This document shows, piece by piece, positions 14,722-58,339 of a stretch of 58,548 nucleotides of DNA. The DNA lies in the IMG/VR virus record IMGVR_UViG_3300031555_007106; one strand, written 5' to 3'. Origin of the DNA: a virus (taxonomy: Duplodnaviria; Heunggongvirae; Uroviricota; Caudoviricetes). Numbering within the stretch: position 1 is the first letter of the stretch; each line of letters opens with the position of its first letter. Below the pieces are notes generated by a model that had not been told where the DNA came from, did no database searches, and saw only the letters and a list, made by a program, of their open reading frames with translations. A program made the translations under genes and the position numbers.

Positions 14722-14949
14722 TAAAATAATAGCAATTCTTTAAAAACTCCTATCGTCAGTAAAATATTGCTATTAATAGTATGACGATTTTTACATAAAA
14801 CAAAAAAGCCCGCCGAAGCGGACATTTTTTGTACATAGCGTAAAGTCATATACCCGTTTTGTCACCTTTACTTATCTTATAGATAATGATATTTTTGGAA
14901 AATAAAGGCAACAAAATTTAATTAACACGATATAAAATATTACCGTGTA

Positions 14950-15024
14950 TGGAGCAAGCAACGGGAATTGAACCCGCATTTCCTGCTTGGGAAGCAGATG
15001 TATTGACCATTATACGATACTTGC
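14950..15024 (-). tRNA. tRNA-Gly(CCC)
   Basis: GCAAGTA acceptor, TCTGC-TTCCCAA-GCAGG anticodon arm, GGTTCAATTCC T-loop, encoded CCA; 75 nt. Confidence 0.92.
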
Positions 15025-15049
15025 ATACCTTGCTATATTGTAAATTCGG

Positions 15050-15281
15050 CTTTACTATAGTGTAAATTCATACACCCCTAAAACCCAATATATGAGAGTG
15101 TTACAGCACTCCCAGCTTTACTATAGTGTAAATTCATACACCCCTAAATCTAATACATATCTTCGAGAATATTGTTCATTACTTTAGAATAGTGCAAATT
15201 CATACACCCCTAAAGTCCTTCAAAAGAAGATGTTGATATAATCAAACTTTAGAATAGTGTAAATTCATACACCTCTAAAGC
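15050..15281 (-). CRISPR. Mini-array A: 4 repeats, 3 spacers (30/31/31 nt), plus a repeat remnant at ~15030-15047
   Basis: 35-nt repeat, sense GCTTTAGAGGTGTATGAATTTACACTAT(AG/TC)TAAAG, at 15050, 15116, 15182 and 15247. Confidence 0.93.
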
Positions 15282-15441
15282 CTCAAATTCAGTTTTACAG
15301 TGTATGTTACACGTATAATCTCGTACGGACTACTAAGTACGAGGTTTTCTGACCTATAAAGGCCAACCTTTGCAAGAGTGGAACTCCGGCGTTAATAAAC
15401 GTCTTACAGGTCCTTCTCGCTCTAAGGGTGCAAAGCCACCC
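15282..15441 (-). ncRNA. tracrRNA-like element A (Cas12f type), fused to array A
   Basis: ~160-nt sequence conserved in six copies. 5' hairpin GGGTG-GCTTTG-CACCC, anti-repeat near the 3' end, ends ATTTGAG at the first repeat. Confidence 0.82.
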
Positions 15442-15464
15442 CGACTACGACTTTATGCCGCTAT

Positions 15465-15540
15465 TGGTTGGGATAGTGGGATTTGAACCCACAAAATCCT
15501 TATCATAACAACAAAACAAAATTATTATAACAGTATCCCA
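15465..15540 (-). pseudogene. tRNA-like element: intact acceptor stem, T-arm and CCA, with D/anticodon arms replaced by one AT-rich hairpin
   Basis: TGGGATA...GTGGG-TTCAAAT-CCCAC-TATCCCA-A-CCA; 76 nt. Confidence 0.75.
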
Positions 15541-15591
15541 ATATAATTTTTTGTTTATCTGCTAATGTTTTTCATCTTCATACTATATATT

Positions 15592-15713
15592 CTTTTACCT
15601 ATTCAGTATCTATACGGTCTACTATGTATAGAGTTAACCTTTGCAAGAGGATTTTTCAGCGTTTAAATAACGTCTTACGAAAATTGCCTCGCTCTGAGGG
15701 TGCAAAGCCACCC
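15592..15713 (-). ncRNA. Divergent, shortened tracrRNA-like copy with no array
   Basis: Keeps GGGTGGCTTTGCACCC, GAGCGAG, GTAAGACGTT and CTCTTGCAAAGG. Compensatory stem CTATAC/GTATAG. Lacks the anti-repeat. Confidence 0.7.
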
Positions 15714-15771: not shown

Positions 15772-16002
15772 CTTTACTATAGTGTAAATCCATATACCTC
15801 TAAAGCCCCTGAGGATAAACAAATAAGGGACGCATTACTTTAGAATAGTGTAAATTCATACACTTCTAAAGCGAATCCCCGATTTTCCGCTTTGTTATCG
15901 CTCTTTAGAATAGTGTAAATTCATACACCTCTAAAGCTGATGGGTAGTCAGCAATCCAATTGCCATACTTTAGAATAGTGTAAATCCATACGCCTCTAAA
16001 GC
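15772..16002 (-). CRISPR. Mini-array B: 4 repeats, 3 spacers (30/30/31 nt)
   Basis: Repeats at 15772, 15838, 15903 and 15968. Confidence 0.93.
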
Positions 16003-16162
16003 CTCAAATTCAGTTTTACAGTGTATGTTACACGTATAATCTCGTACGGACTACTAAGTACGAGGTTTTCTGACCTATAAAGGCCAACCTTTGCAAGAGT
16101 GGAACTCCGGCGTTAGCAAACGTCTTACGGGTCCTTCTCGCTCTGAGGGTGCAAAGCCACCC
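16003..16162 (-). ncRNA. tracrRNA-like element B
   Basis: Near-identical to element A; abuts the first repeat via ATTTGAG. Confidence 0.82.
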
Positions 16163-16185
16163 CGACTACGGCTTTATGCCGCTAT

Positions 16186-16372
16186 TGGTTGGAACAGCAG
16201 GTAGTAACCCTATATGTTCCAATATAAGAGAATGCTAACCACTCAGGTGAAAAAAAGGTGTGTTATGATACCTTATCAAGACCTGCCAAAGACATTCTCA
16301 TGCGACACCCTATGTGCCGCTTCCAAGCATAAATAGGAGCGTTGGCTACCCAACAGCAAAGTTAAACTATGC
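16186..16372 (-). ncRNA. Unrecognised structured RNA ending in a CCA-tipped minihelix (copy 1 of 3)
   Basis: Homologous to 53891-54066 and 57957-58155, with compensatory stem changes. Confidence 0.65.
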
Positions 16373-16465
16373 GAACTCGTATTAAACTTTGGTTTCAATG
16401 TGATTTCATAAAAAAACAATCACAAGTATTATAATAGTGCAAGCATTACAATACTTTTGTTGCAC

Positions 16466-16530
16466 ATATATAGTATGATAGAAAAAAATGTAAAAAAATA
16501 AACTTTTTCTTTTCATACACACATTTTTCT
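16466..16530 (-). promoter_or_regulatory. Extended promoter shared with the dCas12f gene and array E
   Basis: GTGTGT.....AAAAAGTTTAT-T-rich-TCATACTATAT; also at 21923-21990 (-) and 53736-53800 (+). Confidence 0.7.
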
Positions 16531-18223: not shown

Positions 18224-18382
18224 CTCAAATTCAGTTTTACAGTGTATATTACACATATAGTCTCGTACGGACTACTAAGTACGAGGTTTTCTGACCGTTA
18301 TGGTCAACCTTTGCAAGAGTGGAACTCCAGCGTTAGCAAACGTCTTACGGGTCCTTCTCGCTCTGAGGGTGCAAAGCCACCC
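18224..18382 (-). ncRNA. tracrRNA-like element C
   Basis: Conserved element with variant hairpin TGACC-ATAAC-GGTCA. Confidence 0.82.
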
Positions 18383-20545: not shown

Positions 20546-21898
20546 TTAATCTTCGTTGTTTCCACTTGATTTCAAAAGTTCGTCAATATCCTTAATAAGA
20601 AGAGCCGGAAGAACATCCTTATCCGCATCAAAAACATGACCGCAAGAAGAACATTCATATGTCACAACATCTTCTTCTGTATGTCTTTCACAAGTTGCCG
20701 TCATACACTGAGAGCACCATTTTCTCAGGCCTTTGTATCCAACTTTAATGACCTTGATTCCGTGTTCCTTTGCCTTATATTCGATTTTCTGAGTTAAGTC
20801 AAAGTAAGACCAATCCTTTAAGTAAACATTCTTCTGAAGTTCAGATGACGCAAGTCCGGTTAAATCCTCAAGCTGAATAGTTCCGCAATTATTCTTGATA
20901 GCCCATTCAATGATAGCTCTTGAGTATCTGTGATTGACCGTATTTCTAAAATTCGTAACAGCTTCACTTATATGATTGCGAGCTGACATCTTTCTCTTGA
21001 ACCCTCTTCCAAGTCTTCCGTCCCCGCATAAGGGTGAATCCTTGTAAGCAGCTTGTCCTATGTTAGCACGTCTGGTCTCAATTCTATCACTGAATCTCTT
21101 GATTTCCTTCCCTTCAATTGTCATTACACGAGAAGAATTGCTGAATGCAGCCATAACAGCATTGTGTTCACCGATATGTACGCCCATAATATTTTCTGCA
21201 TCAAGCTCTGTATTAACATCCTTAGTGAATGTATAAGAAAGAAGAAGATACCACTTGCCATCTTCATATACAAGCTTACTTCCGGAAATCTTGTATTCTT
21301 TATCATAACATCTTTCAAGAATTGTCCATACCGAGTTTTTCGCCTTTGCCGGAGCGACCATTATAAACTTAAGACGGGTATCCTTGAGATTATACTTCTG
21401 CATTCCCTTTCTGGATAACAAAGAAAGAGTAACATACCAATCCTTGATACCACCGTTCGGCTCTTTATCAAAACTAATGGCAATGGATTTATTGTGAAGT
21501 TCCATAGGCATTCCTCTTCTGTAGGAAGGAATCGACATATCTCCTCTCAACATATCCTTTTCTCTTTTCTTGAATGTGTTCATTACATTCTGGATTACTG
21601 AACCGAGATTTCGTGTACTCTGAAGGCAGAATTCACCGCTCATTTCCCTATAAAGCAAGCTCTGAAGATTTGTACTGCTTCCGGTCATTTCTTTGATTTC
21701 ATCCTTTGTTTTAGGGTAATCGCCGTGTGTTTCCTTCCACTTAGCCTTAGCTCCATCATACTCCCAGATTAACTGAACTGCACGATTAGCGGCGTTTCGG
21801 GTTTCGTTCTGCAAATCCCATAACATTCGATTCAATTCCTTGAATTCGATGATGTCATCATTCACAGAGATTAACTTCAATTTTACTACTTTTGTCAT
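20546..21898 (-). CDS. cas12f: Cas12f/TnpB-family RNA-guided protein, predicted nuclease-dead (450 aa)
   Basis: Resembles AsCas12f1 as I recall it along its length (LRGDMSIPSYRR, YVTLSLLS, NFRNTVNHRYSR, CGTIQLEDL, DLTQKIEYKAKEHGIKV, CxxC..CxxC). RuvC-I reads MGVHIG instead of GxDxG. Start at 21898 behind AGGAGG. Confidence 0.88.
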   Translation of the reverse strand: MTKVVKLKLISVNDDIIEFKELNRMLWDLQNETRNAANRAVQLIWEYDGAKAKWKETHGDYPKTKDEIKEMTGSSTNLQSLLYREMSGEFCLQSTRNLGSVIQNVMNTFKKREKDMLRGDMSIPSYRRGMPMELHNKSIAISFDKEPNGGIKDWYVTLSLLSRKGMQKYNLKDTRLKFIMVAPAKAKNSVWTILERCYDKEYKISGSKLVYEDGKWYLLLSYTFTKDVNTELDAENIMGVHIGEHNAVMAAFSNSSRVMTIEGKEIKRFSDRIETRRANIGQAAYKDSPLCGDGRLGRGFKRKMSARNHISEAVTNFRNTVNHRYSRAIIEWAIKNNCGTIQLEDLTGLASSELQKNVYLKDWSYFDLTQKIEYKAKEHGIKVIKVGYKGLRKWCSQCMTATCERHTEEDVVTYECSSCGHVFDADKDVLPALLIKDIDELLKSSGNNED

Positions 21899-25317: not shown

Positions 25318-26409
25318 TTATGGTTTGCATTTTCCGCAGGGAGTATAACCCTCGGAGATTGCTTTGTCATAATTATCCGTTATTTTCTTGTTATTTTCAT
25401 TCATTTCTTTTACTGAAGAACAGTCACTTAAATGAATTTTCTTACTTGAAATATTTAATACATATGTAAGAACTTCAGTGGTTTGACTTTTTTCTTCAAC
25501 GGTTTTTGCTGCAGGAACCACATTAAAGTTAATAGTCTTCCCATCACTGCTTGCCACGATAGTGCCTTGCAAATCCGTTCTGTACACTTCTATATTATTC
25601 TTTTCAAGTCTTGTTAGCACTTCGTCAGTAGGATGACCGTATGAATTGCCTAACCCGCAGCTTATTACAGCATATTTCGGTTCAACTTTCTTTAGAAAGT
25701 TTGATGTGGTAGAAGAGTTGGAACCATGATGACCTATTTTAAGCACATCGCACTTTATGTTTGTCCATATTCCGTCTTCTTCCTCTTTTTCCGCATCTCC
25801 CGTAAATAGAAATTTGTTGTCTCCGTAGGTGATTTTAATAACAATTGAGTTGTTATTTTGTTCTTCCTCATCATAAGCCTTAGGCGCGACAACCTCAACT
25901 GATAAATTCCCTGAATTTAAAATTGTATCACCAGCCATAACTGTATGTACGAGTGCATTGCTTTTCTCTACTGCACTTAACATATTTTCGTACACAGATG
26001 TAGTCGCAGACGCTTCAGTCATATAAAATTCGTTTACTTTAAAGGATTCAATAACTTCCGTCAGTCCACCTATATGGTCGCTATGAGCGTGTGTGGCCAC
26101 GACATAATCAATTGTATCATAACCTTGACTAAAAATGTATGTAGCAACGTTTCCGCCTTGGTCAATTTCGCCTGCATCAATTAACATCGTTGAGCCATCA
26201 GGCAATTCTATAAATGTCGAATCACCCTGTCCAACATCAATATAATGAATAACAATATCTGATTTATCATTTTTGACATCATTAACAGTAGTATAGACAT
26301 CGCTTTCTGTTGTACGTATTGTAGTTTCAGATGTTTTGACATCGTTTGTACAACATCCAGAAAACATCATTATCGCAAAGCTTAACATCAAAATCAAGAC
26401 TTTTTTCAT
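25318..26409 (-). CDS. ComEC/Rec2-type metallo-beta-lactamase-fold lipoprotein with a C-terminal Cys/His metal-binding domain
   Basis: Lipobox FSGC; IDVGQGDS, THAHSDHIGG, FTGDAE, KIGHHGS, NSYGHP; C-terminal KIHLSDC...PCGKC. Confidence 0.88.
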   Translation of the reverse strand: MKKVLILMLSFAIMMFSGCCTNDVKTSETTIRTTESDVYTTVNDVKNDKSDIVIHYIDVGQGDSTFIELPDGSTMLIDAGEIDQGGNVATYIFSQGYDTIDYVVATHAHSDHIGGLTEVIESFKVNEFYMTEASATTSVYENMLSAVEKSNALVHTVMAGDTILNSGNLSVEVVAPKAYDEEEQNNNSIVIKITYGDNKFLFTGDAEKEEEDGIWTNIKCDVLKIGHHGSNSSTTSNFLKKVEPKYAVISCGLGNSYGHPTDEVLTRLEKNNIEVYRTDLQGTIVASSDGKTINFNVVPAAKTVEEKSQTTEVLTYVLNISSKKIHLSDCSSVKEMNENNKKITDNYDKAISEGYTPCGKCKP

Positions 26410-26477
26410 TTTATCATTTCCTTTCTTTTTTTTTATTATATCATAACACAACCTGTTGTACAATTAACAGTACTATA

Positions 26478-53173: not shown

Positions 53174-53345
53174 TTTTACTCTTTTAACAACATACGGACG
53201 GGAAACCTCGGTTATTTATAGTTGAGAAGTTCACACATAGCACATATCACATTTCAAAATTTAACATTTTATTCTATCATACTACAATTAAGAGGTGATA
53301 TAATTTTTGTCGAATTCCTCAAAAGGCATTTAATCATCTTGAAAC

Positions 53346-53506
53346 GGGTGGCTTTGCACCCTCAGAGCGAGAAGGACCTGTAAGACGTTTGCTAACGCTG
53401 GAGCTCCACTCTTGCAAAGGTTGACTTTTTGTAAGTCAGAAAACCTCGTACTTAGTAGTCCGTACGAGACTATATGTGTAATATACACTGTAAAACTGAA
53501 TTTGAG
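53346..53506 (+). ncRNA. tracrRNA-like element D
   Basis: Conserved element; a CATACTA promoter core lies at 53278-53284. Confidence 0.82.
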
Positions 53507-53718: not shown

Positions 53719-53890
53719 TAAAGAGTAAAGCATATAAAAAATCGTGTGTGAGAATGAAAAAAGTTTATAATTTTTTTGTTTTTTTCTATCATACTAAATA
53801 TGTAGTCAGTTATGGTCTGCTTGTACTTTTTGTGCAGTGGATGATAAATTGAATAAAAATACATTTTATTCCAAGATTTAAGACGAGTGA

Positions 53891-54066
53891 GCATAGTTTA
53901 AATCTTGCGTTGGGTCAAGCCAACACTCCTATTTATGCTTGGAAGTGATACATAGGGTATCGCACGAGAATGTCTTTGGCAGAATTTTTACCTCCTTTAG
54001 CGATTCTGAGTGGTTAGCATTCTCTTATACTGGAACATATAGGGTCACTACCTGTTGTTTCATCCA
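53891..54066 (+). ncRNA. Unrecognised structured RNA ending in a CCA-tipped minihelix (copy 2)
   Basis: Homologous to 16186-16372, with covarying stems. Confidence 0.65.
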
Positions 54067-54089
54067 ATAGCGGTATAAAGCCGTAATCG

Positions 54090-54250
54090 GGGTGGCTTTG
54101 CACCCTCAGAGCGAGAAGGACCTGTAAGACGTTTGCTAACGCCGGAGTTCCACTCTTGCAAAGGTTGACTTTTTGTAAGTCAGAAAACCTCGTACTTAGT
54201 AGTCCGTACGAGACTATATGTGTAACACACACTAAAAACTGCATTTTGAG
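54090..54250 (+). ncRNA. tracrRNA-like element E
   Basis: Conserved element; ends TTTTGAG. Confidence 0.82.
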
Positions 54251-54546
54251 GCTTTAGGGGTGTATGAATTTACACTATAGCAAAGCGATTCGTCCTTTCT
54301 TTGTAAGGCGGGTAAGCTTAGGGGTGTATGAATTTACACTATAGTAAAGCGCTCCGCACTTTCCGCAGACGAGCAAGCCTGCTTTAGAGGTGTATGAATT
54401 TACACTATAGTAAAGCTTCAGGACAAAAGAGCCCTTCAGGCCTCGTGCTTTAGAGGTGTATGAATTTACACTATAGCAAAGCACACATATTGATAATCTG
54501 CAATAAATGCAGCTTTAGGGGTGTATGAATTTACACTATAGTAAAG
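54251..54546 (+). CRISPR. Mini-array E: 5 repeats, spacers 30/31/31/30 nt
   Basis: Repeats at 54251, 54316, 54381, 54447 and 54512. Confidence 0.95.
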
Positions 54547-54606
54547 TAGCATGCATAAATCCACTATAATAAAGGAGCAAATTCTTTATTGTAATCTGCA
54601 AGACAC

Positions 54607-55150
54607 GAGAATAAACAGGGTAATTACCTGTTATTCTCACCAACAACAAATCAAAACAGAATAAAGCTGATGGAGTATCCCTGAGCAATCTTTATAGATT
54701 GAACGCAACAGCTTCAAATAAAATGCGTTGGTGAGGCGTGACCGTAGCGAAGCAGGGCTGAACATGGACCCCGAGGTTATTGCGCCGCAGCATGCGATAT
54801 CCCCGGTCAGGAGGACGTACCTTGCCTCCTTAAACATTGGGTAGGGCTGGAACGCTGGGGGCAAAACCCGGGATGCTTGCATGGAAGACAGGACAGCGTT
54901 TGTCGCAATATCAAGAGATATTGGTCATGCAGGTTGCTGCGGCGATTTAAATTTTCATCAAATTTTCATAAATTTTTTCTTTCTTATCTCAAATCTGGAC
55001 TTGGGGCTGGGGGTAGTATACCCTTTTTCAGTGCCAAGTCCGGGTGAGGGATAACTCTCGCGTTGCGGTCGACTTATCATGACCAGTTGACGCCGTTGGC
55101 TTCCGCGTTGCGCTGACCATTCAGGCTCTAGAGGTGGCAATGCCTGCTCC
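54607..55150. other. GC-rich non-coding region with extensive nested complementarity (candidate large ncRNA)
   Basis: Stems 54607-54638, 54783-91/54936-44, 54809-14/54825-30, 54851-57/54894-900, 54906-23 and 54997-55004/55034-41; no credible ORF. Confidence 0.45.
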
Positions 55151-55546: not shown

Positions 55547-57883
55547 TTGAACAACACAACGAAAAAAACAGCGGCAACCCTGATGAAAGCTTTTTCATTC
55601 GGGGTTTTATTATTTTTGGTATTCCTTATACCTACACTAATAAAGAATAATGGTTTATTTATAACAGACGGAGATTATCCATTCCAAAGCATCCCGTTTA
55701 CATATCACATAAGAGACTCGGTTTTCACAGGAAATGTTGTTTGGAATCACGCATCCGGATTTGGAGGACAGTTCTTATCTAATTATGCTTATTACAATTT
55801 GTGCAGTCCATTTACATTAATATATCTGATACTGCCAAGAAACTGGATTGTTTATGCTATGCCTTATATGGAAGCTGTAAAGTATGGTGTTGGTACAATG
55901 TTGGCCGCTCATTATATAAACAGATATGTAAGAAGTGATATGTATTCTATTGTAGGTGGTCTCACATATATGTTTTCCTCGTTCTCTGCTTACAATCTCG
56001 TATTTCATTTCTCTGACGCTATTGCTCTGTTTCCCTTACTTCTTATATCTATTGATGAACTGTGTATGAATAACAGAAGATGCGTTTTTGCATTAAGCTG
56101 TGCATTATTAGCGTACACCAACTATTATTTCTTTTTCGGGCAAGCAGTCTTTTTGGTGATATATTTCTTTACAAGGTATCTGAGTAAAGATAAAAGGTAT
56201 TTCTTCAAAAAACTCTGTGTTGTTGCCCTTGAGGCGGTTATAGGCGTTATGTTAGCAGCTCCCCTCCTGTTTCCTGTGCTTATTACTCTTTTAGATAGTG
56301 CGAAAGCCACCGCCACAATCAACATCTCAGATATGTTTATTTACAGCAATATCAATTATTATTTAAAGATAATACAGGGTGCGTTTATGATTCCTGACCA
56401 GTTCGGATGTATTTCTTACTTCCCGGCAGTAGAAAGTCAATATCCTTTCGGAACTGTTATTGGTTCGGTAGCTTCATACATACCTTTTTTTTCTGTTGCA
56501 GGCGTATTATCTTATATATACGTGAGGAGAGGAAGTCGTTTTAGTGCTCTGCTTACAATCTGCGGAATAATGGCACTTATTCCTATAGGTAATCAACTAT
56601 TCTCGGGACTCAATACTTCCTTTTATGCCAGATGGTATTATATGCCTATACTTATAGCGTCTCTTGTTTCTGTCAAAGCTCTTCAAGACGGAATAAGCTT
56701 TAATTACGGTATAGGAGTATGTTCCTTGTTTGTTGCAGCAATTGCAATAAAGCTGAATTATGGGTACTCAGCGGATGAAATAAAGGCTTATGTTTCTGAA
56801 ACCATGGAAATAACTTTTAATAATACATCTGAGATACTGAATCAGATTTATATTCTTATTACAATTTTCGGTTTACTTTCTTTGATGCTTGTTACTGCGT
56901 TAAGAAAGAAAAAGATATTCAATGTGGTATTTGGAGCTGTATTTTTTGTTAATGTTCTCTCAAGTTACGGTATTACTTATTACACTGCAGTAACTGTAGG
57001 TCCCGAAAAAGACATATATGAAAAGAATATGGCTATTGAAGAATATTCAGAGGATTTCAGTACAACAGACAGAGTACTGTTCACAGCAAATGAGACTTCT
57101 AATCTCAGTTTGTACTACGGATTAAGTTCTATTGATTATTTTAATTCTCTTACAGATGCAGGATTTCAACGTTTCCTTACAGAAAATGGTTTAGTAGAAA
57201 ATACCGGAGTCAACACTCCGATTGATGAAGAGAGTCTTCCTGTCTGTGATATAACTTCGGTTAAGTATTTCTATACATCGCCAAAAGATGAAGAAAATTC
57301 TGTTTACTTATCGCCTGTGTACGAATATGAGATTGTAGGGAAATTAGGAAGAATGGATATCAGAGAAAATCCTAACTACGTTCCTATGGGGCTTACCTAT
57401 GACTACATGATTACTTACGAAGATTTTTCAAAGATAGAAAATAAAGAAGATAGATGGAAAGTGTATATGAGTTATCTGGTCGTAGACAATCCGGACGATT
57501 TTGTTGATGTACTCAGCCTTTATAAGGGAGATATAAATACGGAGGATTATAAAGATGCAGTTTTGGAACGTCGCCAAAGCTGTGCGTATTACTCTGAATA
57601 CACAAAAGATGGTCTTGTATCTCATATAGACGTTGACGCGCCTGAATTGGTATTTTTCTCTGTTTCTTATAATGATAGCTGGAGAGCTTACGTTGACGGC
57701 AAGGAGCAACAAGTGTATGAAGTTAACAATGGACTTATCGGAGTGAAGGTACCTGAAGGCGACCACGAAATACGACTTGTTTATTCAGTGAAAGGCTTTA
57801 CAGTAGGATGCGTTGCTTCTTTTGCAGGAGTTGTAATTCTTATTGTTGTTAAAATCGTATGTGAGAATAAAAAAGAGCGTTAA
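55547..57883 (+). CDS. YfhO-family multi-pass membrane protein (GT-C-type glycosyltransferase)
   Basis: TTG start; GDYPFQSIPF, YYNLCSPF, many TM helices, and the C-terminal FFSVSYNDSWRAYVDGK..NNGLIGVKVPEGDHEIRLVY typical of YfhO. Confidence 0.85.
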   Translation: MNNTTKKTAATLMKAFSFGVLLFLVFLIPTLIKNNGLFITDGDYPFQSIPFTYHIRDSVFTGNVVWNHASGFGGQFLSNYAYYNLCSPFTLIYLILPRNWIVYAMPYMEAVKYGVGTMLAAHYINRYVRSDMYSIVGGLTYMFSSFSAYNLVFHFSDAIALFPLLLISIDELCMNNRRCVFALSCALLAYTNYYFFFGQAVFLVIYFFTRYLSKDKRYFFKKLCVVALEAVIGVMLAAPLLFPVLITLLDSAKATATINISDMFIYSNINYYLKIIQGAFMIPDQFGCISYFPAVESQYPFGTVIGSVASYIPFFSVAGVLSYIYVRRGSRFSALLTICGIMALIPIGNQLFSGLNTSFYARWYYMPILIASLVSVKALQDGISFNYGIGVCSLFVAAIAIKLNYGYSADEIKAYVSETMEITFNNTSEILNQIYILITIFGLLSLMLVTALRKKKIFNVVFGAVFFVNVLSSYGITYYTAVTVGPEKDIYEKNMAIEEYSEDFSTTDRVLFTANETSNLSLYYGLSSIDYFNSLTDAGFQRFLTENGLVENTGVNTPIDEESLPVCDITSVKYFYTSPKDEENSVYLSPVYEYEIVGKLGRMDIRENPNYVPMGLTYDYMITYEDFSKIENKEDRWKVYMSYLVVDNPDDFVDVLSLYKGDINTEDYKDAVLERRQSCAYYSEYTKDGLVSHIDVDAPELVFFSVSYNDSWRAYVDGKEQQVYEVNNGLIGVKVPEGDHEIRLVYSVKGFTVGCVASFAGVVILIVVKIVCENKKER

Positions 57884-57956
57884 GTTTTGCGATTTATTCT
57901 TTCATACTATATATGTAAGAGTTAAAATCTTGCATTGTCCAAAACACTTGCGAGTT

Positions 57957-58155
57957 TGCATAGCTGTGTTTTGGTTTCAGATGTTTTTTCTTTTCATCTG
58001 ATACATCCCATATGCTTGGAAGTGGCACATAGGGTGTCGCATGAGAATGTCTTTGGCAGGTCTTGATAAGGTATCATAACACACCTTTTTCCGCCTGAGT
58101 GGTTAGCATTCTTTTATACTGGAACATATAGGGTCACTACCTGTTATTTCAACCA
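57957..58155 (+). ncRNA. Unrecognised structured RNA ending in a CCA-tipped minihelix (copy 3)
   Basis: Homologous to the other two copies; a CATACTATAT promoter core lies at 57903. Confidence 0.62.
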
Positions 58156-58178
58156 ATAGCGGCATAAAGCCGTAGTCG

Positions 58179-58339
58179 GGGTGGCTTTGCACCCTCAGAG
58201 CGAGAAGGACCTGTAAGACGTTTGCTAACGCCGGAGTTCCACTCTTGCAAAGGTTGGCTTTTTGTAAGTCAGAAAACCTCGTACTTAGTAGTCCGTACGA
58301 GACTATATGTGTAACATACACTGTAAAACTGAATTTGAG
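58179..58339 (+). ncRNA. tracrRNA-like element F
   Basis: Conserved element ending ATTTGAG. Confidence 0.82.

What the first reader, a model, noticed from the sequence alone, without database searches (positions are those of the whole stretch)
15442..15540. tRNA mimic placed immediately upstream of the tracrRNA, a possible natural tRNA-gRNA processing cassette
Seen: locus A has a 76-nt pseudo-tRNA (perfect acceptor stem, canonical T-arm, CCA, no D or anticodon arm). Loci B, E and F have at the same position a minihelix TGGAACA..AGG-GTYACTA-CCTG..TRTTYCA-(A/T)CCA. In all four, CCA is followed by the same 23-nt linker (ATAGCGGYATAAAGYCGTARTCG) and then the tracr. Two different structures solve the same problem at the same position. 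Known: RNase P and RNase Z/3' nucleases recognise the acceptor+T-arm, which engineered tRNA-gRNA arrays exploit. Inference: host tRNA processing defines the guide RNA's 5' end.
Basis: partly seen in the sequence, partly recalled or inferred. Interest (0 to 1): 0.8.

Follow-up and report, generated by a model that had tools for sequence, protein, structure and literature searches.

The report
tRNA relics punctuating phage guide-RNA operon
In a large gut or rumen phage, cut-down tRNAs and real tRNAs flank the guide-RNA units of a Cas12f-like protein, so host tRNA-cutting enzymes probably chop one long transcript into separate guides; this is unproven, and most related systems have no tRNAs there.

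Summary
On the minus strand, 15540->15465 is a 76-nt tRNA-like element. A 23-nt stretch follows (15464->15442), then the conserved tracr core starts at 15441. Three other tracr copies carry a minihelix-NCCA plus the same 23 nt.

New findings:
- Element A keeps the ends of a phage tRNA-Gln(UUG): acceptor stem, T arm and ACCA. Its core is replaced by an unrelated AU hairpin.
- The minihelices follow a conserved ~150-nt leader RNA, in the slot where a Cas12f-less phage contig has a real tRNA-Pro. They are reduced tRNAs that came with an older "leader + tRNA" module.
- The "linker" folds as a small hairpin and is not part of the conserved tracr.
- In the closest relative, a real tRNA-Gly ends 7 nt before a tracr, and real tRNAs follow arrays.
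- 16483->14808 looks like one operon with a single promoter-motif match and no terminator before its end: leader, guide units, tRNA-like, tRNA-Gly.

Against a general role: 3 of 7 local tracr copies and 36 further copies in relatives have no tRNA-like element. Other lineages carry different 5' hairpins.

Best reading (~0.5): opportunistic tRNA punctuation, chiefly by RNase P. RNase Z is unlikely because CCA is encoded. No RNA-end data exist.

The parts
15465..15540 (-). tRNA-like element A. It has the acceptor stem, T arm and ACCA of a phage tRNA-Gln(UUG); the D/anticodon core is replaced by an unrelated 12-bp AU hairpin.
   Evidence: ARAGORN; fold z -3.55. The ends are near-identical to the L001 and L002 tRNA-Gln while the core is unrelated. 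The core is unique in the window. No Rfam tRNA hit.
15442..15464 (-). 23-nt 'linker' A. It is a small hairpin (CGGC-AUAAA-GUCG plus a G.U closing pair) between ACCA and the tracr core.
   Evidence: Four copies against 0 expected; folds as a 5-bp hairpin; absent from tracr copies C, D and E and from all relatives.
15282..15441 (-). tracr core A. The conserved RNA starts with the 5' hairpin GGGTG/CACCC.
   Evidence: Covariance model R1, 151.8 bits; family alignment with covarying 5' hairpin.
15050..15280 (-). Mini CRISPR array A: 4 repeats and 3 spacers, followed by a 25-nt tail up to tRNA-Gly.
   Evidence: Repeat and spacer table; repeat family D1.
14950..15024 (-). Genuine tRNA-Gly(CCC) with encoded CCA, 25 nt after the last repeat of array A.
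   Evidence: ARAGORN; Rfam tRNA 63.8 bits.
14808..14823 (-). Intrinsic terminator-like hairpin plus T run; the likely end of the ncRNA operon.
15571..15713 (-). tracr variant C. It is shortened and has no array; its 3' extension carries the complement of the phage promoter core. It ends 30 nt upstream of tRNA-like A.
   Evidence: R1, 85.9 bits; alignment with compensatory stem changes; sequence read; promoter motif list.
15772..16001 (-). Mini CRISPR array B: 4 repeats and 3 spacers.
16003..16162 (-). tracr core B.
   Evidence: R1, 150.9 bits.
16163..16185 (-). Linker hairpin B.
16186..16221 (-). Minihelix B plus ACCA; a reduced tRNA made of acceptor and T arm only.
16222..16379 (-). Leader RNA B, a conserved ~150-nt structured RNA.
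   Evidence: R2, 147.9 bits; RNAalifold gives 26 pairs, 16 with compensatory changes.
16471..16483 (-). Phage promoter motif TTCTATCATACTA that heads the B-C-A operon.
   Evidence: Six exact matches in the window. One precedes the Cas12f-like gene and four precede guide loci.
53884..54030 (+). Leader RNA F; its promoter motif is at 53784-53796.
   Evidence: R2, 138 bits.
54031..54089 (+). Minihelix F plus TCCA (54031-54066) and linker hairpin (54067-54089). tracr F follows at 54090-54250 and array F at 54252-54546.
57951..58119 (+). Leader RNA G; its promoter motif is at 57897-57909.
   Evidence: R2, 149.5 bits.
58120..58178 (+). Minihelix G plus ACCA (58120-58155; one C x A mismatch) and linker hairpin (58156-58178). 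tracr G follows at 58179-58339, and the array runs from 58341 to the window end.
18224..18382 (-). tracr D, with no tRNA-like element and no linker upstream.
53346..53506 (+). tracr E, with no tRNA-like element and no linker. Its promoter motif is at 53272-53284, about 60 nt upstream.
20546..21898 (-). Cas12f-like effector, 450 aa from the likely start. RuvC-I Asp is replaced by His.
   Evidence: Pfam PF07282; AsCas12f structures 8j12/7wju at E 1e-76, with IMGVHIG aligned to IMGIDLG; His is conserved across the clade.

Best explanation
The stretch is a tRNA-derived punctuation mark inside a polycistronic guide-RNA operon of a large phage.

Shown:
- Element A keeps the native acceptor stem, T arm and ACCA of a phage tRNA-Gln(UUG). 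Its core has been replaced.
- Elements B, F and G are tRNAs reduced to an acceptor/T-arm minihelix with NCCA. Each sits 6 nt after a conserved leader RNA; elsewhere this leader is followed by a full tRNA at 7 nt or another minihelix at 7-8 nt.
- All elements lie on the transcribed strand.
- On the minus strand from 16483 to 14808 there is one match to the phage promoter motif and no terminator-like site until the 14823-14808 terminator, apart from one weak hit inside the leader's variable hairpin.
- The order along that stretch is: promoter, leader, minihelix-ACCA, hairpin, tracr B, array B, tracr C, tRNA-like A-ACCA, hairpin, tracr A, array A, tRNA-Gly(CCC), terminator.

Inferred:
- Host RNase P cuts at the 5' side of each tRNA or tRNA-like element. 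This would release the leader RNA, separate guide unit B/C from unit A, and trim the 3' end of array A at tRNA-Gly.
- A second cut 3' of CCA, by an unidentified endonuclease followed by trimming, may free the tracr. RNase Z is unlikely because CCA is encoded.
- Alternatively the tRNA-like element plus the 23-nt hairpin stays on as a structured 5' cap.
- The arrangement is opportunistic. tracr-array units were placed behind pre-existing 'leader + tRNA' modules in the phage's tRNA islands. The tRNA halves that RNase P does not need were then lost.
For: - tRNA ancestry of A: 28 nt of T arm + acceptor + ACCA are 96% identical to the L001 tRNA-Gln, the 5' strand is identical, and the core is unrelated.
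- Minihelix geometry (7 bp + 5 bp + 7-nt loop) is kept in six elements that have four different acceptor sequences. NCCA is present in 5 of 6.
- The leader RNA is a real structured family (16 of 26 pairs compensatory). Its last helix ends 6-8 nt before position +1 of either a full tRNA-Pro (L013) or a minihelix.
- In L001 (Cas12f 67% identical), a real tRNA-Gly(UCC) scoring 69 bits ends 7 nt before a tracr. There arrays are followed by tRNA-Gln and tRNA-Pro. In the window, array A is followed by tRNA-Gly(CCC).
- One promoter motif and no terminator-like site across 16483->14823 other than a weak hit inside the leader's variable hairpin.
- Many tracr copies in relatives start right after a stop codon. 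Excision from longer transcripts is therefore a general need in this family.
- The effector clade has His in place of the RuvC-I Asp. TnpB makes its guide's 5' end with RuvC (PMC10278001). Reliance on host RNases is therefore plausible, though this is inference.
- Established knowledge, not tested here: bacterial RNase P cleaves acceptor/T-stem minihelices that carry a 3' RCCA.
Against: - No transcript-end data. The only RNA-library hit is a contig from a relative that lacks the element.
- The conserved tracr begins 23 nt after CCA. Copies C, D and E, and 36 further copies in relatives, have neither a tRNA-like element nor the linker.
- The leader + minihelix module also exists without any tracr (L001 5631-5815; G001 contig C428, where no Cas12f homolog was found). 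Its minihelix may therefore serve the leader RNA, not the tracr.
- In L001 one leader precedes a tracr with no convincing tRNA-like element between them.
- Minihelix G has a mismatch and folds weakly.
- The four local copies are recent duplicates (96% identity over 234 nt), so their shared layout counts as one event.
- Encoded CCA argues against RNase Z.
Confidence: 0.5

Rival explanations
1. Evolutionary debris. tracr-array units were duplicated or recombined into the phage's tRNA/ncRNA islands. The tRNA-like pieces are relics of broken tRNA genes. They may or may not be cut, and they have no selected role in guide-RNA maturation.
For: - The four copies share one recent duplication, and its boundary falls inside the acceptor 3' strand (D2, 96% over 234 nt; alignment).
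- Most tracr copies in the family have no tRNA-like element.
- tRNA adjacency is seen only in the two phages that carry tRNA clusters.
- Minihelix G is decaying: one C x A mismatch, z -0.74.
Against: - What is retained is exactly the RNase P-relevant half. In A that half is nearly unchanged while the 40-nt core is completely replaced at preserved overall length.
- Minihelix geometry is kept through compensatory changes across divergent phages.
- Real tRNAs abut the guide units within 7-25 nt on the same strand.
Confidence: 0.25
2. The minihelix belongs to the leader RNA, not to the tracr. It forms the leader RNA's 3' end through RNase P (as in MALAT1/mascRNA). Alternatively, together with the 23-nt hairpin, it stays on the downstream RNA as a structured 5' cap against 5'-3' decay. 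On this view the tracr units merely borrow the module's strong promoter.
For: - The leader + tRNA/minihelix module occurs without any tracr, and in a contig where no Cas12f homolog was found.
- The distance from the leader's last helix to position +1 is fixed at 6-8 nt.
- Other lineages place unrelated stable hairpins 4-6 nt before the tracr: L018/L019/L020 (z -10.6 to -3.2) and L002. This suggests that 5' structure, not tRNA identity, is what recurs.
Against: - Element A has no recognisable leader upstream (R2 finds none).
- A real tRNA-Gly sits directly before a tracr in L001 without any leader.
- The reading does not explain the real tRNAs at the 3' ends of arrays.
Confidence: 0.18
3. An attP-type tRNA fragment left by, or used for, site-specific integration into a host tRNA gene.
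For: Phages commonly carry the 3' part of a tRNA as an attachment core (general knowledge). A's 3' 30 nt match a tRNA-Gln.
Against: - Both acceptor strands are present and perfectly paired.
- There are four copies, each fused to a tracr.
- No integrase was noted among the ORFs examined near them.
- The match is to phage-borne tRNA-Gln genes, not to a host gene.
Confidence: 0.03
4. A working, unusual tRNA that lacks a D arm and decodes in the host.
For: ARAGORN calls it tRNA-Asn(GUU). Its length is 76 nt and its acceptor stem, T arm and CCA are perfect.
Against: - The anticodon is at an abnormal position.
- No Rfam tRNA hit even at E 5.
- The core is one 12-bp AU hairpin with an 8-nt loop.
- The acceptor and T arm are those of tRNA-Gln, not tRNA-Asn.
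Confidence: 0.02

Closest known systems
Engineered polycistronic tRNA-gRNA arrays (PTG) and Haloferax 't-element' crRNAs cut by RNase P and tRNase Z
   Same: A tRNA or tRNA-like unit sits directly beside a guide RNA in one transcript, so host tRNA enzymes release the guides. Acceptor and T arm are the parts that matter.
   Different: Those are man-made. The review PMC8616872 describes RNase Z/P as 'repurposed' in a Cas6-less strain, and my literature searches found no natural case. Here CCA is encoded, which disfavours RNase Z. A 23-nt hairpin separates CCA from the tracr, and cleavage is not shown.
tRNA punctuation and tRNA-like 3'-end formation (mitochondrial polycistrons; MALAT1/mascRNA; herpesvirus MHV68 tRNA-miRNA units)
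   Same: tRNA or tRNA-like structures inside long transcripts act as RNase P / RNase Z cut sites. These define the ends of neighbouring non-tRNA RNAs, and reduced tRNA-like folds are enough.
   Different: Those systems are eukaryotic or organellar (from my own knowledge, not tested here). This one is a bacteriophage, and the neighbours are a tracrRNA/CRISPR unit and a novel leader RNA.
Phage T4 tRNA operon with co-transcribed small stable RNAs
   Same: A phage tRNA cluster is transcribed as a polycistron together with non-tRNA stable RNAs that host tRNA-processing enzymes cut out (from my own knowledge).
   Different: T4 has no guide RNAs. The leader RNA family here has no Rfam match and shows no sequence relation to the T4 RNAs that I could test.
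RNase P model substrates (acceptor/T-stem minihelix with 3' RCCA) and the tRNA-like domain of tmRNA
   Same: A 12-bp coaxial acceptor + T stem, a 7-nt loop, a discriminator and CCA. The tmRNA model's tRNA-like domain weakly matches A.
   Different: The tmRNA hit is below the gathering score (14.3 against 47 bits), and there is no tag reading frame and no pseudoknots. The T loops of B, F and G (GTYACTA) fit the T-loop consensus only in part.
Type V-F Cas12f tracrRNA:crRNA (AsCas12f type) and TnpB omegaRNA biogenesis
   Same: The effector is homologous to AsCas12f (E 1e-76). A long structured tracr lies upstream of repeat-spacer units. TnpB-family guides need 5' processing out of longer transcripts (PMC10278001).
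   Different: - RuvC-I Asp is His across the clade, so self-processing by RuvC is doubtful.
- Guide units are dispersed in 2-7 copies per element, each with its own tracr.
- No tRNA involvement has been described for Cas12f or TnpB.

Membership tests
Canonical tRNA (Rfam RF00005) | Cloverleaf with D arm and anticodon arm, scoring at or above the family threshold (29 bits) | tested here: not met
   No RF00005 hit at E<=5 for 15465-15540. The core folds as one 12-bp hairpin. ARAGORN puts the anticodon at the abnormal position 29.
Canonical tRNA (Rfam RF00005) | 7-bp acceptor stem, 5-bp T stem with a TTCRANY loop, discriminator and CCA | tested here: met
   TGGGATA/TATCCCA, GTGGG-TTCAAAT-CCCAC and A-CCA. 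These are near-identical to the L001 tRNA-Gln.
RNase P minimal substrate (acceptor/T-stem minihelix) | About 12 bp of stacked acceptor + T stem, a 7-nt loop and a 3' RCCA tail | tested here: met
   A, B, F and G all show 7+5 bp and a 7-nt loop. The tails are ACCA (A, B, G) or TCCA (F). G has one mismatch.
RNase P minimal substrate (acceptor/T-stem minihelix) | Actual cleavage at the -1/+1 junction by RNase P | not testable with these tools
   Only assembled contigs of RNA libraries were available, so no ends could be read.
Natural tRNA-guide RNA processing cassette (functional analogue of PTG) | The tRNA(-like) element and the guide lie on the same strand in one transcription unit with no terminator between them | tested here: met
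   Promoter motif at 16471-16483. Before the terminator at 14823-14808 the only terminator-like site is a weak one inside the leader hairpin. All elements are on the minus strand.
Natural tRNA-guide RNA processing cassette (functional analogue of PTG) | The arrangement recurs in independent relatives | tested here: inconclusive
   It recurs with a real tRNA-Gly in L001. It is absent from 36 other tracr copies in relatives.
Natural tRNA-guide RNA processing cassette (functional analogue of PTG) | The mature guide end coincides with the tRNA processing site | tested here: inconclusive
   The conserved tracr starts 23 nt (window) or 7 nt (L001) after CCA. The true RNA ends are unknown.
tmRNA | tRNA-like domain plus tag reading frame and pseudoknots; Rfam threshold 47 bits | tested here: not met
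   14.3 bits, tRNA-like domain only. ARAGORN finds no tmRNA.
Phage attP tRNA fragment | Only the 3' part of a host tRNA, next to an integrase | tested here: not met
   Both acceptor strands are present, there are four copies fused to tracr units, and the neighbouring ORFs gave no integrase hit.
Type V-F (Cas12f) CRISPR guide system | A Cas12f-family effector with tracr plus repeat-spacer units nearby | tested here: met
   PF07282 and AsCas12f at E 1e-76. Seven tracr copies, six of them with arrays.
Type V-F (Cas12f) CRISPR guide system | Intact RuvC catalytic triad | tested here: not met
   The RuvC-I Asp aligns to His (IMGVHIG against IMGIDLG). His is found in 48 of the 60 aligned sequences (the query plus its 59 best homologs), and 5 more have Asn.

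The most novel reading that the evidence does not exclude
A phage has evolved a natural counterpart of the engineered tRNA-gRNA array. Its Cas12f-like protein has an altered RuvC site and cannot trim its own guides. The phage therefore relies on host RNase P, and keeps stripped-down tRNAs (acceptor + T arm + CCA) as dedicated cut sites between guide units. The associated ~150-nt leader RNA would then be a new class of phage small RNA whose 3' end is also made by RNase P.
Probability: 0.3. Interest if true: 0.75.

Novelty: new variant of a known kind. Interest (0 to 1): 0.55.

Why it matters
If RNase P-type punctuation really matures these guides, it would be the first natural case of a design that genome engineers invented independently, the tRNA-gRNA array. 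It would show that a CRISPR-type system can hand guide biogenesis to the host's tRNA machinery. It would also supply very small (36-nt) natural processing tags for multiplexed Cas12f guides. Finally, it shows how phages build dispersed guide-RNA regulons by inserting guide units into tRNA islands. Even if the processing role fails, the work defines a new structured leader RNA family tied to phage tRNA genes.

Tried and rejected
- **RNA evidence.** Two searches for sequencing runs gave only Logan contigs. Of four runs laid, one metatranscriptome (X20) held a single 233-nt contig covering repeat 1 plus the tracr core (15968-16162). That contig then diverges upstream, so it comes from a relative without the tRNA-like element. 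X23 gave nothing. No ends, strand or level can be read from this, so it counts neither for nor against.
- **Searches for close relatives that found nothing.** The INPHARED phage collection by blastn; IMG/VR by exact or degenerate tracr and leader patterns; JGI metagenomes; and GTDB genomes with a strict leader pattern. A looser pattern found one contig, L013.
- **Leader RNA distribution.** Among 151 genomes of L013's family it was found only in L013's own genome. There are no Rfam matches for the leader, minihelix or linker at E<=5.
- **Phage-encoded RNase Z.** The metallo-beta-lactamase ORF at 25318-26463 is ComEC-type (155.9 bits). Its RNase Z score is 28.6 bits, far below the 293-bit cut-off. 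Rejected.
- **A hidden tRNA-like element between leader and tracr in L001 (4378-4498).** The fold is weak (z -1.5 to -1.8). Not claimed.
- **The AU core of element A as a repeated insertion.** It is unique in the window and absent from all loci fetched up to that point.
- **Own genome.** None is held for this window.
- **'Cas12 hacker' preprint (10.1101/2025.01.20.633832).** It describes a different, larger phage Cas12 and does not mention tRNA.
- **attP and working-tRNA readings.** Rejected for the reasons given under the rival explanations.

Full report
**Setting.** No whole genome is held for this window. Its genes lie almost entirely on one strand. Earlier scan notes describe a roughly 195-kb phage-like element of a Gram-positive rumen bacterium (I did not test this). 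The DNA recurs in animal gut and faecal metagenomes.

The window encodes one Cas12f-like protein at 20546-21898 on the minus strand. It matches Pfam PF07282 and the AsCas12f structures 8j12 and 7wju at E 1e-76.

A covariance model of the ~160-nt tracr-like RNA (R1) finds seven copies in the window: A, B, C and D on the minus strand and E, F and G on the plus strand. Six of them run directly into a mini CRISPR array with a 34-36-nt repeat.

On the minus strand, 15540->15465 reads as:
- a 7-bp acceptor stem, TGGGATA/TATCCCA;
- a 40-nt A/U-rich core;
- a T arm, GTGGG-TTCAAAT-CCCAC;
- discriminator A and CCA.

ARAGORN calls it a tRNA with a misplaced anticodon. Rfam's tRNA model does not match. 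Only the tRNA-like domain of the tmRNA model gives a sub-threshold hit. The element folds as acceptor stem, one 12-bp AU hairpin and T arm (z -3.55).

The 23-nt consensus after CCA occurs exactly four times, in A, B, F and G, against none expected. B, F and G carry the described minihelix: a 7-bp stem, a 5-bp T-like stem, a 7-nt loop GTYACTA, and then ACCA or TCCA. The "linker" is itself a small hairpin, and its substitutions keep the pairing through wobble pairs.

**What A is.** I fetched the contig that encodes the closest Cas12f homolog (L001, 67% identity). It carries nine tRNAs interleaved with three tracr-array units. Its tRNA-Gln(UUG) has the same 5' acceptor strand as A. It also has a 28-nt T arm + acceptor + ACCA that is 96% identical to A's, while the middle is unrelated.

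So A is a phage tRNA-Gln whose D/anticodon core was replaced, at preserved overall length, by a sequence found nowhere else in the window or in the loci fetched up to that point. The near-unchanged ends beside a wholly different core point to a replacement event rather than gradual decay.

**What the minihelices are.** In B, F and G the minihelix is the 3' end of a ~150-nt conserved RNA that follows a phage promoter motif. With copies from L001 and from an Oscillospiraceae-binned contig (L013/L016, G001:C428), this "leader RNA" has a consensus fold of 26 pairs, 16 of them with compensatory changes. It has no Rfam match.

The leader's last helix ends 6-8 nt before one of two things:
- a full, bona fide tRNA-Pro (L013 5290-5366); or
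- a minihelix (window B, F, G; L001 5783-5815; L016 1655-1700).

These elements use four different acceptor sequences but share one geometry. NCCA is present in five of six. No Cas12f homolog was found in the G001 genome, and no tracr in the 8-kb L013 stretch. In L001, one leader + minihelix has no tracr behind it.

The minihelix is therefore a tRNA reduced to acceptor + T arm. It belongs to an older "leader + tRNA" module of phage tRNA islands and was not invented for the tracr. The hairpin after the L001 minihelix resembles the window's "linker", which suggests that the linker came with that module too (reading).

**Operon context.** The exact promoter motif TTCTWTCATACTA occurs six times in the window. 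One copy precedes the Cas12f-like gene and four precede guide loci B, E, F and G. On the minus strand between the motif at 16471-16483 and the terminator at 14823-14808, there is no second motif. The only other terminator-like site is a weak one inside the leader's variable hairpin.

The predicted ~1.65-kb transcript reads, in order:
1. leader RNA;
2. minihelix-ACCA;
3. hairpin;
4. tracr B;
5. array B;
6. tracr C;
7. tRNA-like A-ACCA;
8. hairpin;
9. tracr A;
10. array A;
11. 25 nt;
12. tRNA-Gly(CCC), which scores 63.8 bits;
13. terminator.

In L001 a real tRNA-Gly(UCC) (69 bits) ends 7 nt before a tracr. There arrays are followed by tRNA-Gln and tRNA-Pro. Real tRNAs in a transcript are cut by RNase P, so in these two phages guide units will be separated at those points. 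The tRNA-like elements keep exactly what RNase P reads.

**Limits of the processing idea.**
- The conserved tracr starts with its 5' hairpin, 23 nt after CCA.
- Copies C, D and E have no tRNA-like element and no linker.
- The same is true of two of the three L001 copies, of 16 copies in L002-L012, and of 18 more copies in eight IMG/VR phage loci at 36-37% protein identity. No tRNA was found in any of those loci except one tRNA-Gln in L002, which is not next to a tracr.
- Many tracr copies start right after a stop codon. Excision from longer RNAs is thus a family-wide need that is met without tRNAs.
- Other lineages place unrelated stable hairpins 4-6 nt before the tracr (z -10.6, -3.2 and -3.4 in L018 and L020; an AT hairpin in L002). 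What recurs is 5' structure, not tRNA identity.
- All phage tRNAs and tRNA-likes whose 3' ends I read encode CCA. CCA is known to inhibit RNase Z (my knowledge). In E. coli, CCA-encoding precursors are first cut 1-3 nt downstream of CCA by RNase E (PMC2190699, abstract). The enzyme that would cut on the tracr side in a Firmicute host is unknown.
- No phage RNase Z is present. The metallo-beta-lactamase ORF is ComEC-type.

**An added consideration.** The effector has His where AsCas12f has the RuvC-I Asp. His is conserved in 48 of the 60 aligned sequences (the query plus its 59 best homologs), and five more have Asn. TnpB trims the 5' end of its guide with RuvC, and a RuvC mutant does not (PMC10278001). 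If this clade's RuvC is inactive, guide 5' ends must be made by host enzymes, which fits borrowing tRNA processing where tRNAs are at hand. This step is inference: a His could still bind metal.

**RNA data.** Only assembled contigs of RNA libraries were available. One holds a tracr plus first repeat from a relative without the element. Nothing can be concluded about ends.

**Literature.** Full-text searches found only engineered uses of tRNA or t-elements to release guide RNAs. A 2021 review calls RNase Z/P "repurposed" in a Cas6-less Haloferax strain (PMC8616872; other searches). I found no natural tRNA-tracr or tRNA-crRNA cassette. That search covers open-access text only.

**Verdict.** The sequence observation is solid, and the comparative data sharpen it. 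The elements are tRNA derivatives, and real tRNAs occupy equivalent positions in a relative.
- tRNA-type punctuation of a phage guide-RNA operon is the best reading (about 0.5);
- it is lineage-specific and opportunistic;
- it probably acts mainly through RNase P on the 5' side of each element;
- it has not been shown to define the tracr's 5' end.

Rivals:
- relics without a role (0.25);
- a function tied to the leader RNA, or a role as a 5' cap (0.18);
- attP fragment (0.03);
- working tRNA (0.02).

I class it as a new variant of a known kind.

Noticed in passing
window 16222-16379(-), 53884-54030(+), 57951-58119(+); L001 4240-4385 and 5631-5783; L013 5133-5290 and 5651-5823; L016 1501-1655: A ~150-nt structured 'leader RNA' family with no Rfam match. 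It has 26 consensus pairs, 16 with compensatory changes, and invariant junction strands TGGAAG, TTTGG and AGTGGTT. It always lies just upstream of a tRNA or a tRNA minihelix in phage tRNA islands, including one contig where no Cas12f homolog was found. Its function is unknown.
   Followed up: partly
window 20546-21898(-): The Cas12f-like effector has His in place of the RuvC-I Asp (IMGVHIG against AsCas12f IMGIDLG). His is conserved in 48 of the 60 aligned sequences (the query plus its 59 best homologs) and 5 more have Asn. This marks a whole mobile-element clade with an altered active site and dispersed tracr + mini-array units (2-7 per element).
   Followed up: partly
window 15571-15713(-) and plus strand 15577-15590: tracr variant C has no array. 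Its 3' extension is the reverse complement of the phage promoter core (TTCATACTATATAT), the core that precedes the Cas12f-like gene and the guide loci. It may be a self-regulating single guide. On the plus strand the same bases look like a promoter.
   Followed up: no
window 54600-55130(+): A GC-richer (46-49% against ~33%) non-coding stretch upstream of a YfhO-like membrane protein gene (55547-57883). It has a strong predicted fold (z -4.97) and no Rfam match. It could be a large structured RNA or foreign DNA.
   Followed up: no
L018 14360-14412, 5435-5487 and 19062-19114; L019; L038; L020 1742-1794; L022: In IMG/VR phages with a 36-37% identical Cas12f-like gene, most tracr copies are preceded at 4-6 nt by a conserved ~48-nt two-tier hairpin (z down to -10.6). 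The stem changes compensatorily between lineages, from GTATGCGAAT/ATTCGCATAC to AGTGCGAAC/GTTCGCACT.
   Followed up: partly
L013 3952-4335: A tmRNA gene (121 bits) lies inside the tRNA-rich, phage-like contig that carries the leader RNAs, so the tmRNA is probably phage-borne.
   Followed up: no
L001 828-919: The phage tRNA-Gln(UUG) is 92 nt long. It carries a 21-nt insertion between the anticodon arm and the T arm, yet still scores 60.5 bits as a tRNA.
   Followed up: no
window 15025-15049(-): The 25 nt between the last repeat of array A and tRNA-Gly lie where a fourth guide would be. RNase P cleavage at tRNA-Gly would give such a guide a defined 3' end.
   Followed up: no
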